Shown here one piece after another: positions 41,953-44,939 of a stretch of DNA of 64,000 bases (its first letter is position 1; every line of letters starts with the position of its first letter). Location of the stretch: assembly GCA_963831755.1 (NCBI GenBank), contig CAWHRC010000022.1, positions 64,937 to 128,936 of the forward strand, written 5' to 3'. Under the pieces are notes generated by a model. That model saw only the letters and a list, made by a program, of their open reading frames with translations, did not search any database and was not told where the DNA came from. Origin of the DNA: an uncultured Acidobacteriota bacterium. GTDB lineage: Bacteria; Acidobacteriota; Vicinamibacteria; Fen-336. The translations under genes and the position numbers were made by a program.

Positions 41953-42171
41953 GGGCCTACCTCGGTCTCGCGGGGACGCGGGGGAGGGGTTTCCCGGACA
42001 GTACGACCTTGCGCAACGTCCGCGCGAAGGTCCCGACGATCGAGGCCGCGAGCGTCTGGCCCGTCGGCCGCCGACGATCTTCGCCGTCGCTGTCCAACGG
42101 TGCTCCTCCGTCGGGTGGGAAACCCTGAGGAGTGTATCACGCGGGGCCGCCGGGCCCGCGGCTGGCACGCC

Positions 42172-42391
42172 TCAGGCGCTCGCGGGGAGGTCCAGCTCGT
42201 CCCAGAGCAGGTCCATCCCCATCTCGGCCCGACGGAGCAGCAGCTCCTGGTCCTCGATGGAGCAGCGCGCGATGCGACTCCGCGTCTCGTCTCCCGGCCC
42301 GGGCGCCACGAGAAGACCGACGACCGCGCCGACGAGGCCGCCCAGCAGGGCGACCCCGACATAGGTGCTCGTGCGACGAGCGCTCGATCAT
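42172..42391 (-). pseudogene. YtxH-like small membrane-associated protein, with one frameshift just after the start
   Basis: STYVGVALLGGLVGAVVGLLVAPGPGDETRSRI... matches the YtxH pattern (hydrophobic helix, then AP-x-G-x-ETR). ATG at 42391 with GGAGG upstream. ATG and stop are 220 nt apart, which is not a multiple of 3. Confidence 0.45.
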
Positions 42392-42422
42392 GACTGCTCC
42401 ACAACCTCCGCCACGACGTGCA

Positions 42423-42438
42423 TGCAAAACACGTGCCG
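42423..42438 (-). promoter_or_regulatory. Sigma-54 (-24/-12) promoter
   Basis: The minus strand reads cGGCACG-TGTT-TTGCA, against the consensus TGGCACG-N4-TTGCW. GG and GC are 10 nt apart. There are 31 nt to the ATG at 42391, with a GGAGG in between. Confidence 0.55.
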
Positions 42439-42554
42439 CGGTCTGGCAAGCTCCTTGCGAGATGCGAAACAGGCCGAAAACGGGCGAATTCCGCGATTTT
42501 GCGTGCCGGGCAGCTCCTCCAACGTCGAGAAGGTGCGTGTCCATTTGTCCGTAA

Positions 42555-42574
42555 TTGCCGTGTCACAACGGCAA
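42555..42574. promoter_or_regulatory. Perfect 7-bp inverted repeat TTGCCGT-N6-ACGGCAA; candidate enhancer (bEBP) site or weak terminator
   Basis: Seen directly. Its centre is about 135 bp upstream of the sigma-54 promoter. It also lies about 35 nt downstream of the beta-lactamase-family gene's stop, but has no U-tract. Confidence 0.35.
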
Positions 42575-42608
42575 CAATTGCGACAGCGCCGGAGGAGCGC
42601 CGACGTCG

Positions 42609-43810
42609 TCAGCGAACGACGCGGTCGGCGGTCACGAGGTCGGCGATCCGTCGGGCGAGGTGCAGGAGCGGCGTGCCGACGCCTCTCGAGGTTCGAGAGC
42701 AGGGCGACCACGACGCCCGCTGTCGGGCCGGGTGTAGAGGACCGTGCTGACGCGCTCCTGGCCGCCGGTGTGCCAGGCCTCGCGCCGGCCGCCGTGGAAG
42801 CCGACCGTGATCCCGAGGCCGAAGCCGGTCACCCGCCCGGTCGCGGGTCTTCTGGGGCGTCAGCATCTGCCGGAGCGTCGGGCGGTCGAGGAGCCTGCCG
42901 GAGAGGAGCGCCAGGCCGAAGCGGGCCACGTCGGGAGCCGTGCCGCACAGGCCGCCGCCGGGCACCTTGTAGCTGGTGTCCGCGAGCGCCGAGTTCAGCA
43001 GCTCGCCGCTCCCGTCGCGGACGTAGCCGCTCGCTCGGTGGGGGATGAGCGCGCGGACGTCGTCCGGCTGCGTGCTCGTCATCCCCGCGGGAGCGAACAC
43101 CTCCTCCCGCAGGACCTCGGCGAACGGCCGGCCGGCCGCGCCCTCGACGGCGCAGCCGAGCAGGCTGTAGCCGTACGTGCTGTAGAGCACCTTCGTGCCC
43201 GGCTCGAAGGCGAGGGGGTCGTCCTTGAAGAGCACGAGCCCCTCGGAGAGGGACGAGTAGCGGCGAACCTGCGGCGTGCTCGCCCGCGTCGGTAGGAGCG
43301 CACGCCGCCCTGGTGGCAGAGCAGCTGGCGCGTCGTGACCGGCCAGGGCTTGGGCGGGTAGGCGCCGCAGTAGCTCCAGACGGGCGGGTCGAGGTCCAGC
43401 CGGCCCTTCTGGGCGAGGCGCAGCGCGGCGACCGCCGTCATCGGCTTGGAGACGGAGGCGAGCCGGTAGACGGTTTCCGGGCGCCGCGACGACCTCGTTC
43501 TCGACGTCCGCGAGGCCGTAGCCTGCCGCGAAGCGCAGCTCGCCCCCGTCCCCGATCGCCACCGAGAGGCCCGGGATGCCCCGCTGCGACATCTCCTCGG
43601 CGATCGCGCGTGCGCGATCGGCCTCGGCACGAGCGGCCGGCGGCAGTCGGCGCGCGCCAGCGTCCGCGACGGCGGGTCGCGCTGCGGCGCGGCGGCTGCG
43701 GCGGCGCCGGCGGCTCGTGCCCGCCGGGGCGGCCGGCCGGGCGGCGGCGTGAGCAAGGCGACGCGCCAGGACAGCGAGACGGCGAGCGAGCGGCGACGCG
43801 GCGGCCGCAC
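42609..43810 (-). pseudogene. Serine hydrolase, beta-lactamase (class C/EstB-like) family, at least 5 frame switches
   Basis: Fragments IPGLSVAIGDGGELRFAAGYGLAD, YRLASVSKPMTA (SxxK), LLCHQGGVRSY, YSTYGYSLLGCAVE and TGFGLGITV...WHTGGQ lie in three frames. The start is uncertain. Confidence 0.7.
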
Positions 43811-43813
43811 TCG

Positions 43814-44939
43814 CTACTCCAGCCAGTCCCGGTCCCGCAGCTTCTTCGGCAGGTACTCCTCGGTGATGAAGCTGATGCCGCGCCGGGAGAGCGCCTCGAG
43901 CTCGAACTTGAGGCCGCTCCTGCACCATCTCCTGGATCTCCCGCTGCCAGCGCGGCGTGCTTGAACCAGGGGTAGGCGAGCATCTGCTTCGCGCGGCTGT
44001 TGTCGCCGTCGTCCATCTTGATGGCGACGTTCGTCGGCAGGGCGTACTTCTCCTTGTCGAAGGAAGAGAGGCCGACGAAGCGCGCGTCGGGCACCGCCAT
44101 GCGCATCGACTCGTAGGCCAGGTTGATCGAGCCCTGCTTCATGACGCTGTAGATGTAGAAGCCCCACGGGTCGTTGTCGACCAGCACGTAGACCGGCAGC
44201 TTGAGCTCGCTGTGCAGCCGCTGCACGAGCCGCCGCACGCCGCGCGGCGGCTGGCCTCCGCCGTGGACGATGATGCAGTTGTTGCGCTTCCAGAACTTGT
44301 CCTCGTTGAAGCGCGTCCAGACCGCGTCCTTCTCGATCAGCAGGACGTACTTGGCCTCGTGCTTGCGGAAGCGGATGACGTTCTCCTCGACGATCGAGGG
44401 CACCGCCCAGCCGCCGGAGCCCATGCGCCGCAGGTCGATGGTGTCGCCGCTGTCGGCGATCGGTGATCGGCCCCACCATCGAGCCCTTGCGCGCGGCGAA
44501 CAGGTGCAGCTCCTCGCGCAGGGCGTCGACGGTGACCTCGAGGTCCTCGATGATCGGATCGGACTCGTCCTGCTCCTCGAAGGTGTTCTGGCGCGTGTCG
44601 CCGATCGTGTGCTTGGCGACGTAGTAGAGGTCGCGGATGCTGGTCGTCTTGCCCGACGTCGATCAGCTCCTTGCAGGCCTCGCTGACCAGGAAGGTCTGC
44701 ATGAACTTCCTGGCCATCGACACGTTGAAGAAGTAGCGCTTCTGCTTCTGGTTGCCCAGCTCGACCAGCCGCTTCTTCTCGCTCCAGGTGACGTTGGCGA
44801 GCGAGCGCACGGGGATCTCGAGGGACGGGTTCCTGCCCTTGCTCACCGTCTTCAGCACGCCCTCGGCGAGCTTCTCGATCTTGGCCGCCGTCTTCTTCGA
44901 GACGGCGTCCGTCTTCCTGGAGGCCGCGTCCTTGCGCAT
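43814..44939 (-). pseudogene. top6A: DNA topoisomerase VI subunit A (Spo11/Top6A family), at least 4 frame switches
   Basis: Catalytic-Tyr region IRDLYY. Toprim motifs VLLIEKDAVW and YVLVDNDPWG. C-terminus GLKFELEALSRRGISFITEEYLPKKL. ATG at 44939, 4 nt after the top6B stop. Confidence 0.8.

What the first reader, a model, noticed from the sequence alone, without database searches (positions are those of the whole stretch)
42172..42574. Near-consensus sigma-54 promoter with an upstream perfect inverted repeat driving a YtxH-like small protein
The minus strand at 42423-42438 reads GGCACG-TGTT-TTGCA. It matches the consensus at every position except the first T, lies 31 nt before an ATG, and has a GGAGG in between. 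About 135 bp further upstream is a perfect 7-bp inverted repeat, TTGCCGT-N6-ACGGCAA. That distance is typical for bacterial enhancer-binding-protein sites. The downstream ORF has the YtxH signature (hydrophobic helix, then APGPGDETR), which suggests an envelope-stress-type, Psp-like response. No bEBP gene is present in this window.
Basis: partly seen in the sequence, partly recalled or inferred. Interest (0 to 1): 0.6.

Follow-up and report, generated by a model that had tools for sequence, protein, structure and literature searches.

The report
Conserved sigma-54 promoter for mini-YtxH gene
This is a genuine sigma-54 (enhancer-dependent) promoter, with a conserved upstream activator-site module, in front of a 72-residue YtxH-type membrane protein gene of an uncultured soil acidobacterium (class Vicinamibacteria); it is a well-supported example of a known kind of switch, and its activator and the protein's function remain unknown.

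Summary
The minus strand reads C-GGCACG-TGTT-TTGCA at 42438-42423. GGAGG and an ATG lie 31 nt downstream, and TTGCCGT-N6-ACGGCAA sits at 42574-42555.

The genome is a Vicinamibacteria MAG (72% GC). It has one intact rpoN and about 27 enhancer-binding-protein (bEBP) genes, none on this contig.

In 15 congeneric genomes the eight core promoter bases (GGCA, TTGC) are invariant, while the spacer and most of the intergenic region vary. Every short YtxH-like gene that could be placed elsewhere in the class carries a sigma-54 motif 43-85 nt before its ATG. YtxH genes sampled in other phyla do not, and nearly all in other acidobacterial classes do not.

The conserved upstream unit is a rigid ~50-bp module, not the perfect 7-bp repeat alone. 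Its distance to the promoter is mostly 100-103, 112 or 88-91 nt (about 11-bp steps), but 106 nt in the window. The module is unique in the genome, so the activator cannot be named.

The ORF has one extra base just after the ATG. This is probably an assembly indel, because the neighbouring gene shows at least 5 frame switches. "Psp-like" holds only as an analogy.

Verdict: new member of a known kind, modest interest.

The parts
42537..42586 (-). Conserved ~50-bp upstream module, the candidate bEBP enhancer (UAS): CTGTCGCAATTGTTGCCGT-TGTGAC-ACGGCAATTACGGACAAATGGACAC
   Evidence: The blocks GTCnCGAATGTTGCCGT...CACGGC...TCCGnC..ATGGACAC are conserved in 15 congeners and in a second genus. Internal spacing is fixed at 33-34 nt. 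The module is unique in the genome by PWM scan: 41.9 bits against 20.3 for the next hit.
42555..42574 (.). Perfect inverted repeat TTGCCGT-N6-ACGGCAA inside the module
   Evidence: The GCCGT-N6-ACGGC core is kept in about 8 of 15 orthologous loci. That core occurs 50 times in the genome, but only this copy lies within 300 nt of a sigma-54 motif.
42518..42522 (-). Conserved TTGGA pentamer between module and promoter (role unknown)
   Evidence: TTGGA or TTGAA is present in all 15 aligned loci and in genus g15.
42474..42500 (-). A/T-rich tract (AAAATCGCGGAATTCGCCCGTTTTCGG), a possible bending or IHF-type site between enhancer and promoter
   Evidence: A T-run is conserved at this position in congeners and in g15. 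A bending function is inferred only. By eye it did not fit the IHF consensus WATCAANNNNTTR.
42423..42438 (-). Sigma-54 promoter C-GGCACG-TGTT-TTGCA (-24 GG at 42437-42436; -12 GC at 42425-42424)
   Evidence: GGCA and TTGC are invariant in 15 species while the spacer varies. The pattern is enriched genome-wide, and 36 of 48 looser matches are intergenic and co-oriented with a gene.
42412..42412 (-). Predicted transcription start (+1, counted from C of the -12 GC at 42424)
   Evidence: Inference from the canonical sigma-54 geometry; not measured.
42405..42409 (-). Ribosome-binding site GGAGG
   Evidence: GGAGG/GGGAGG is conserved at the same position in the orthologues.
42389..42391 (-). Start codon ATG of the mini-YtxH gene
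   Evidence: GTCATGA is conserved in 14 of 15 loci. Orthologues read M-T-S/I-A-R-R-T-S-T-Y.
42387..42387 (-). Extra base (T) relative to all orthologues, putting the ATG out of frame; probably an assembly indel
   Evidence: Alignment. The adjacent serine-hydrolase gene shows at least 5 frame switches in 1.3 kb. 14 of 14 orthologues are intact, with dN/dS 0.22.
42172..42387 (-). Reading frame of the YtxH-like protein (71 codons SSARRTSTYVGV...DLPASA plus TGA stop at 42174-42172)
   Evidence: AlphaFold model of the orthologue: helix 3-28, break at APGPG, helix 32-58.
42140..42160 (-). GC-rich hairpin after the stop codon (possible terminator without a U-tract)
   Evidence: A stem-loop sits at the same place in about 13 of 15 orthologous loci with differing sequence. 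Energies are not better than shuffles, and RNAalifold found no consensus. Weak evidence.
42129..42140 (-). Conserved box GTGATACACTCC (TGnTAnnnT, extended -10-like), marking the probable start of the next transcription unit
   Evidence: GTGnTAnnCT is conserved in 15 loci and followed by a conserved GGAGG-type site. The promoter function is inferred.

Best explanation
The element is a sigma-54 (RpoN) dependent, enhancer-activated promoter that drives a small gene for a 72-residue YtxH-family protein. The transcript is probably monocistronic. The protein has one N-terminal hydrophobic helix, an APGPGDETR hinge, a second helix and an acidic tail.

Proposed mechanism:
- RpoN-RNA polymerase binds GGCACG-N4-TTGCA (42437-42423) as a closed complex.
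- A bEBP encoded elsewhere (one of about 27) binds the conserved ~50-bp module centred about 125-150 nt upstream, which includes the TTGCCGT-N6-ACGGCAA repeat.
- The bEBP contacts the polymerase by DNA looping across an A/T-rich tract and opens the promoter.
- Transcription starts near 42412, giving a ~21-nt leader with GGAGG.

What is shown: the motif, its conservation, the presence of rpoN and bEBPs, the genome-wide use of this promoter class, and the rigid module.

What is inferred: bEBP binding to the module, the start site, the terminator, and a role of the protein in membrane or envelope stress.

The one-base frameshift after the ATG is most likely an assembly error.
For: - Motif and geometry.
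- Intact RpoN with RpoN box; 27 Sigma54_activat hits at E<1e-40.
- Eight of 8 core bases are invariant in 15 congeners whose intergenic regions are 54% identical, with only 29/206 invariant columns (P~6e-8). The distance from promoter to ATG is constant at 43-47 nt from the GG.
- The motif is present 43-85 nt before 18 of 18 short YtxH-like genes whose start could be placed, in other genera and families of the class. Sixteen score >=6/8, against a 0.6% background rate.
- YtxH genes in Dehalococcoidia, Cyanobacteria, Bacteroidota and Nitrospirae lack it. In other acidobacterial classes only 2/27 score >=6 (4/27 >=5).
- Genome-wide there are 28 strict matches against 8.7 expected. 36 of 48 looser matches are intergenic and co-oriented with genes for two HtrA proteases, a BON protein, DUF5670, HlyD, LpxC, CydA, DnaK and a second mini-YtxH.
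- The upstream module is conserved across two genera with internal spacing fixed at 33-34 nt. Its distance to the promoter is 88-91, 100-103 or 112 nt, i.e. steps of about 11 bp.
- No sigma-70-type promoter and no Rfam family are found in the region.
- The ORF is under purifying selection, dN/dS 0.22.
Against: - There are no transcript data.
- The module-to-promoter distance in the window itself is 106 nt, half a helical turn off the 101-nt mode.
- The perfect repeat is not conserved as such.
- No second copy of the module exists in the 84%-complete genome, and no bEBP gene lies within 1.5 kb of any of the 75 loci then held (orthologues, more distant YtxH loci and controls). The activator is therefore unassigned.
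- In this assembly the ORF is out of frame with its ATG.
- The Pfam YtxH score is below the gathering cut-off (34.2 vs 37.5).
- The terminator hairpin is not statistically supported.
Confidence: 0.82

Rival explanations
1. The promoter is a real sigma-54 promoter, but the conserved upstream module is not the bEBP enhancer. It could instead bind another regulator (a repressor, a nucleoid protein or an IHF-like bender) or belong to another transcript, with the bEBP binding elsewhere or acting without a specific site.
For: - The module has no second copy and no shared k-mers with the upstream regions of 35 other predicted sigma-54 promoters.
- The perfect repeat is species-specific.
- Spacing in the window (106 nt) is off-phase relative to the 101-nt mode.
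Against: - The module sits at the classical enhancer distance.
- It moves with the gene when the upstream neighbour differs: in L010 the upstream gene is topo VI A rather than the hydrolase.
- It is partly palindromic and keeps fixed internal spacing.
- Its distance to the promoter changes mostly in ~11-bp steps.
- No sigma-70-like promoter or RNA family is detected.
Confidence: 0.2
2. The gene is a true pseudogene in this strain. The one-base insertion after the ATG is real, so the promoter drives a dead ORF.
For: As assembled, the ATG frame (MIERSSHEHLCRGRP...) does not encode the YtxH sequence, and the YtxH frame has no start codon before V28.
Against: - The neighbouring 1.3-kb hydrolase gene has at least 5 frame switches.
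- Three bEBP genes are split in the same assembly.
- Completeness is only 84% in 26 contigs, which fits a long-read assembly with indel errors (inference).
- Earlier readers' notes on this window report extra bases in other genes.
- At about 1 indel per 250 nt, one hit in a 219-nt ORF is expected.
- All 14 orthologues are intact and under purifying selection.
Confidence: 0.12
3. The transcript does not stop after the YtxH gene. It continues into the downstream Lys/Ala-rich histone-H1-like gene, so the promoter controls an operon.
For: The genes lie on the same strand. The hairpin after the stop lacks a U-tract and is no more stable than shuffled sequence.
Against: - A conserved TGnTAnnnT box followed by a conserved GGAGG site sits between the genes in all 15 loci, which suggests a separate promoter.
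- A GC hairpin is positionally conserved in about 13 of 15 loci.
- 220 nt separate the stop from the next annotated ATG.
Confidence: 0.2
4. The match is a chance occurrence with no promoter function.
For: About 9 strict matches are expected by chance in this genome.
Against: The core bases are invariant in 15 species amid 54% intergenic identity. The motif recurs before homologous genes across the class. Its orientation and its distance to the start codon are both correct.
Confidence: 0.03

Closest known systems
Canonical sigma-54 (-24/-12) promoters with remote bEBP enhancers (e.g. E. coli glnAp2, pspA, Klebsiella nifH; consensus TGGCACG-N4-TTGCW, Barrios et al. 1999, from my own knowledge)
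   Same: GG-N10-GC geometry and 14 of 15 consensus positions. An upstream, partly palindromic module lies about 100-150 nt away, with an A/T-rich tract in between. rpoN and many bEBPs are present in the genome.
   Different: C instead of T at -26. The activator is unknown and not encoded nearby. The enhancer is a ~50-bp composite that is unique in the genome. There is no experimental start site.
Comparative-genomic sigma-54 regulons linked to the 'bacterial exterior' (Francke et al. 2011, PMC3162934)
   Same: Co-oriented motifs within 300 nt of a start codon in an rpoN-positive genome, the criterion that paper uses. The predicted targets here are largely envelope proteins: HtrA, BON, LpxC, HlyD and small membrane proteins.
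   Different: A text search of that paper found no mention of Acidobacteria or of 'stress protein'. No paper in the searched library links YtxH with sigma-54.
Bacillus subtilis YtxH (ytxGHJ operon, sigma-B general stress regulon; from my own knowledge) / Pfam PF12732
   Same: An N-terminal hydrophobic helix followed by the AP-x-x-G-x-ETR motif. A small protein regulated like stress proteins.
   Different: Only the first ~30 positions of the 71-position model align, and the score is under the cut-off. The protein is shorter (72 aa) and has a distinct acidic tail (SIEDQE...DLPASA). It is controlled by sigma-54 rather than a sigma-B type factor.
E. coli phage-shock (Psp) system: PspF bEBP and a sigma-54 pspA promoter
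   Same: A sigma-54 promoter in front of a small membrane-associated protein, so the regulatory logic could be similar.
   Different: The protein is not PspA/IM30. There is no adjacent PspF-type activator. The genome's PspA homologue lies 44 kb away and has no sigma-54 motif.

Membership tests
Sigma-54-dependent promoter | -24 GG and -12 GC elements exactly one helical turn apart (GG-N10-GC) within TGGCACG-N4-TTGCW | tested here: met
   CGGCACGTGTTTTGCA at 42438-42423. The only mismatch is T->C at -26.
Sigma-54-dependent promoter | The genome encodes RpoN with its DNA-binding domain | tested here: met
   PF04552 hit at 219.9 bits. The ORF is an intact 476 aa with region I and the RpoN box ARRTVAKYRE.
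Sigma-54-dependent promoter | The genome encodes AAA+ enhancer-binding activators | tested here: met
   27 PF00158 hits at E<1e-40, none on contig C22.
Sigma-54-dependent promoter | Correct orientation and distance to a downstream gene, with core bases conserved in orthologous loci | tested here: met
   31 nt from TTGCA to the ATG. GGCA and TTGC are invariant in 15 species. The motif is present before 18 of 18 related genes in the class sample.
Sigma-54-dependent promoter | An upstream activator sequence bound by a bEBP | tested here: inconclusive
   A conserved rigid ~50-bp module lies 88-112 nt upstream, with spacing that changes mostly in ~11-bp steps. No binding protein was identified and there is no second copy.
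Sigma-54-dependent promoter | Transcription start about 12 nt downstream of the GC, and dependence on rpoN | not testable with these tools
This needs 5'-end mapping and an rpoN mutant or a heterologous test.
YtxH family (PF12732) | Pfam model match above the gathering score | tested here: not met
   34.2 bits against a cut-off of 37.5, E=3.5e-8, aligned to model positions 4-32 only. All 16 aligned relatives match at E<=0.01 (best 1.2e-12). The paralogue on C6 scores 45.0, above the cut-off.
YtxH family (PF12732) | An N-terminal hydrophobic helix followed by the AP-x-x-G-x-ETR motif | tested here: met
   VGVALLGGLVGAVVGLLVAPGPGDETR. G17, G18, G21, G25, A29, P30, G33, T36 and R37 are invariant. 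The AF2 model has helix 3-28, a break, then helix 32-58.
Psp (phage-shock) system | The effector is a PspA/IM30 family protein | tested here: not met
   The only Pfam hit of the ORF is YtxH. The single PspA_IM30 homologue is at C22:62439-63095.
Psp (phage-shock) system | A dedicated PspF-type bEBP encoded next to the sigma-54 promoter | tested here: not met
   No bEBP AAA+ domain is found in the window or within 1.5 kb of any of the 75 loci then held (orthologues, more distant YtxH loci and controls). The PspA homologue has no sigma-54 motif upstream.

The most novel reading that the evidence does not exclude
The short YtxH-like proteins of Vicinamibacteria are the output of a lineage-specific sigma-54 membrane-stress circuit. 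Each paralogue would be driven by its own single-target enhancer and a dedicated orphan bEBP. This would be part of a wider, undescribed sigma-54-run stress and envelope regulon (HtrA, BON, DUF5670, DnaK, LpxC) that stands in for the sigma-B/RpoS type general stress response in these soil acidobacteria.
Probability: 0.3. Interest if true: 0.5.

Novelty: new member of a known kind. Interest (0 to 1): 0.33.

Why it matters
Vicinamibacteria are abundant, mostly uncultured soil bacteria whose gene regulation is essentially unstudied. This locus is a clean, phylogenetically footprinted sigma-54 promoter with a defined candidate enhancer. It could be used to de-orphan one of about 27 activators and to get a first experimental handle on YtxH-type proteins, a widespread 'general stress' family of unknown function. 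It also shows that sigma-54 in this genome mainly fronts envelope and stress-type genes. The mechanism itself is textbook.

Tried and rejected
- Finding the activator:
  - a PWM of the module found no second site;
  - the GCCGT-N6-ACGGC core occurs 50 times but never near another sigma-54 motif;
  - no k-mers are shared with 35 other sigma-54 upstream regions;
  - no bEBP lies within 1.5 kb of any of the 75 loci then held;
  - a phyletic-profile approach was judged too costly and too noisy with incomplete MAGs.
- Alternative identities of the conserved spacer: no sigma-70-type promoter and no Rfam family. An upstream ORF starting at the conserved ATGGACAC was rejected because alignment gaps are not multiples of three. 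NifA-type TGT-N10-ACA fits the window but is not conserved.
- Terminator: RNAalifold gave no consensus. Single-sequence folds show a positionally conserved GC stem that is not better than shuffles.
- Psp link: the PspA homologue has no sigma-54 motif.
- Phylum-wide link: longer YtxH genes in other Acidobacteriota classes mostly lack the motif, so the association is confined to the short subfamily in Vicinamibacteria.
- Literature: no paper links YtxH with sigma-54. The search for Acidobacteria, sigma-54 and enhancer-binding returned one unrelated paper.

Full report
**1. Observation**

On the minus strand the window reads CGC-GGCACG-TGTT-TTGCA-T at 42438-42423.
- The -24 GG (42437-42436) and the -12 GC (42425-42424) have the exact GG-N10-GC geometry.
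- Fourteen of 15 positions of TGGCACG-N4-TTGCW match; the T at -26 is a C.
- GGAGG lies at 42409-42405 and ATG at 42391-42389, 31 nt after TTGCA.
- TTGCCGT-TGTGAC-ACGGCAA lies at 42574-42555 and is a perfect repeat. Its centre is 134.5 nt from the promoter centre.
- The frame ending at TGA 42174-42172 reads SSARRTSTYVGVALLGGLVGAVVGLLVAPGPGDETRSRIARCSIEDQELLLRRAEMGMDLLWDELDLPASA. Its only meaningful Pfam hit is YtxH (E=3.5e-8; 34.2 bits, under the 37.5 cut-off; model positions 4-32 only).

The ATG is not in frame with the YtxH frame, which opens directly after the TGA embedded in cATGAtc and has no start codon before GTG 42309.

**2. Organism and machinery**

- The window is C22:64937-128936 of a 6.15-Mb, 26-contig, 84%-complete genome with about 72% GC.
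- Public contigs carrying the orthologous gene are titled Vicinamibacteria or uncultured Acidobacteriota MAGs.
- The genome has one rpoN. It encodes an intact 476-aa protein with region I and the RpoN box.
- It has 27 strong Sigma54_activat (bEBP) hits, none on contig C22.
- tblastn with a bEBP AAA+ core finds nothing in the window.

**3. Is the promoter more than chance?**

Genome-wide evidence:
- GGCAC[GA]N4TTGC[AT] occurs 28 times against 8.7 expected from a first-order Markov model.
- Of 48 matches to a slightly looser pattern, 36 lie in stretches without coding-type GC3 and point at a nearby high-GC3 ORF with a Shine-Dalgarno site.
- The target genes include two HtrA/DegP-type proteases, a BON-domain protein, a DUF5670 (lmo0937-type) micro-protein, an HlyD adaptor, LpxC, a cupredoxin and a second YtxH-like gene, all confirmed by Pfam. 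By eye they also include DnaK, CydA, an NtrC-type bEBP, kinases and many signal-peptide proteins.
- This promoter class is clearly in use in this genome, largely in front of envelope-related genes. That fits the criterion and theme of Francke et al. 2011 (PMC3162934).

Comparative evidence is decisive:
- Orthologues (73-90% identical) exist in 14 of 16 other genomes of the genus.
- In a MAFFT alignment of the 15 loci, the intergenic region is on average 54% identical, with 29 invariant columns out of 206.
- All eight core bases (GGCA and TTGC) are invariant, while the five spacer positions vary freely. The probability for eight pre-specified columns is about 6e-8.
- The distance from the -24 GG to the ATG is 43-47 nt in every locus.

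The pattern extends beyond the genus:
- Short YtxH-like genes in other genera, in a sister family (g11) and in family f9 carry TGGCA(C/T)-N5-nTGC(T/A) 43-85 nt before their ATG.
- This holds in 18 of 18 loci where the start could be placed (6 further loci gave no recognisable start). Sixteen score >=6 of 8.
- Random 203-nt windows of the same loci reach >=6 in 0.6% of cases and >=5 in 4.7%.

Negative controls behave as expected:
- YtxH-like genes in Dehalococcoidia, Cyanobacteria, Bacteroidota and Nitrospirae have no such motif.
- The longer (80-130 aa) YtxH genes of other acidobacterial classes mostly lack it; 2 of 27 score >=6.

The sigma-54 link is thus a trait of the short YtxH subfamily within Vicinamibacteria. 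The window's own genome has a second such gene, at C6:231878-232060, with its own motif CGGCACCGTCCTTGCAC.

**4. The upstream repeat**

- The perfect 7+7 repeat is specific to this species; the closest relative has 6/7. A core GCCGT-N6-ACGGC is kept in about 8 of 15 loci.
- What is conserved is a larger module, 42586-42537 in the window: GTCnCGAATGTTGCCGT - N5/6 - CACGGC - n - TCCGnC - n - ATGGACAC.
- It is followed by a conserved TTGGA and a T-rich tract.
- The same architecture is present in a second genus: GTCTCGATTGTCGCC...ATGGAGACA...TTGGAT...TTTTT-GTGATC...CGGCA(C/T)A-N4-TTGCA.
- The two ends of the module are always 33-34 nt apart.
- The module as a whole lies 100-103 nt from the -24 GG in 11 of the 14 congener loci in which the script placed the promoter, 112 nt in one, and 88-91 nt in the other genus. 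These are steps of about one helical turn.
- The window itself is at 106 nt, which does not fit this pattern.
- The module travels with the gene when the upstream neighbour changes; in L010 the neighbour is topo VI A instead of the hydrolase.

This is the behaviour expected of a bEBP enhancer acting by looping, but binding is inferred, not shown.

The activator cannot be named:
- The module is unique in the genome: PWM 41.9 bits against 20.3 for the next best hit.
- The core repeat occurs 50 times, but only this copy is near a sigma-54 motif.
- No k-mers are shared with other sigma-54 upstream regions.
- No bEBP gene lies within 1.5 kb of any of the 75 loci then held.
- No sigma-70-type promoter and no Rfam family are detected in the region.

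**5. The gene and its frameshift**

- Orthologues read M-T-(S/I)-A-R-R-T-S-T-Y-(V/I)-G-V-A-L-L-G-G... and are 69-73 aa long.
- The window has ATGATCGAGCGCTCG where they have ATGA-CGAGCGCTCG, so there is one extra base at about 42387.
- The adjacent 1.3-kb serine-hydrolase gene matches its orthologues in at least five alternating frames.
- Three bEBP genes are split in the same assembly.
- Earlier readers noted extra bases in other genes of this window.
- At roughly one indel per 250 nt, a hit in a 219-nt ORF is expected.
- All 14 orthologues are intact, and dN/dS is 0.22.

I therefore read the frameshift as an assembly artefact (about 85%).

An AlphaFold model of the closest public orthologue (mean pLDDT 67.9) has helix 3-28 (the hydrophobic, Gly-rich segment; pLDDT 83-88), a break at APGPG, helix 32-58 and a disordered acidic tail. 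Topology and function are not known. A role as a stress-induced membrane protein is an inference. It rests on the family's sigma-B regulated Bacillus member (my own knowledge) and on the company it keeps in the predicted regulon.

**6. Transcription unit**

- After the stop codon there is a GC hairpin (42160-42140). It recurs at the same place with different sequence in about 13 of 15 loci, but it is not more stable than shuffles and has no U-tract.
- It is followed by an invariant GTGnTAnnCT box (42140-42129; TGnTAnnnT, extended -10-like) and a conserved GGAGG site.

I read this as the end of a monocistronic unit and the promoter of the next one, the Lys/Ala-rich H1-like gene. Read-through is not excluded.

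**7. Comparison with known systems**

- This is a member of the sigma-54 promoter class on every criterion that can be tested in silico.
- It is not a Psp system. The product is not PspA, there is no adjacent PspF, and the genome's only PspA homologue (C22:62439-63095, just outside the window) has no sigma-54 motif.
- The protein is YtxH-like at its N-terminus but falls below Pfam's threshold and has its own C-terminal half.
- No paper in the searched library links YtxH to sigma-54. The search for Acidobacteria, sigma-54 and enhancer-binding returned one unrelated paper.
- Earlier AI notes of this scan report sigma-54 motifs before small stress-type genes in other phyla. They are leads, not evidence, but this locus fits the same theme.

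**8. Verdict**

- It is a new member of a known kind and of modest interest.
- Its main use is as a well-defined promoter-enhancer pair for de-orphaning an acidobacterial bEBP and for studying a YtxH-type protein.

Noticed in passing
window 42612-43908 (- strand): The serine-hydrolase (beta-lactamase family) gene upstream matches its orthologues in at least five alternating reading frames. That is about one indel per 250 nt and points to long-read assembly errors across this window.
   Followed up: partly
window 42095-42140 (- strand): An invariant box GTGATACACTCC (TGnTAnnnT, extended -10-like) is followed about 25 nt later by a conserved GGAGGAG and a TTG at 42097-42095. It may be a separate promoter with a short ORF or long leader ahead of the Lys/Ala-rich H1-like gene (ATG 41952). 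In one relative (L007) the sequence after the box reads like a topo VI A N-terminal segment.
   Followed up: partly
G000 contig C6:154000-200000 (outside the window; L077): A ~45-kb stretch holds eight sigma-54 motif matches. They precede small membrane peptides, a BON protein, an HlyD adaptor, DnaK and DUF5670. The stretch also carries a hybrid kinase, an NtrC-type bEBP (C6:195654-197102), an M23 peptidase, a GlsB/YeaQ-YtxH pair and an EncFtn-encapsulin pair. It looks like a sigma-54-driven stress island.
   Followed up: partly
G000 C6:231878-232188 (outside the window; L078): A second short YtxH-like gene (MNHSYKYAGWALVGG...; Pfam YtxH 45 bits) has its own sigma-54 motif, CGGCACCGTCCTTGCAC, about 100 nt upstream. 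It resembles the g11-type orthologues more than the window's gene does.
   Followed up: partly
G000 C22:62439-63095 (about 2 kb before the window start; L079): This is the only PspA/IM30 homologue of the genome. Upstream it has TTGACG-type sigma-70-like sequence and no sigma-54 motif.
   Followed up: yes
L030 (CAZHCO010000043.1): A 2.5-kb contig binned as 'Aestuariivirga sp.' (Alphaproteobacteria) carries a Vicinamibacteria-type mini-YtxH gene nearly identical to L029 and L031. It is probably a mis-binned contig.
   Followed up: no
L082, L084, L086 (another Acidobacteriota family): TGGAAAGGGGATTGC(A/G/T) lies about 175 nt upstream of a 113-aa YtxH gene in three related genomes. It has -24/-12 spacing, but GGAAA replaces GGCAC. 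It is unclear whether this is a variant sigma-54 site or shared ancestry.
   Followed up: no
G000 upstream regions of C2:410152, C20:91777, C6:167674, C12:234337: The 9-10-mer TAGTGCGGC(T) is shared by the upstream regions of four predicted sigma-54 promoters. It may be the enhancer of a different bEBP.
   Followed up: no
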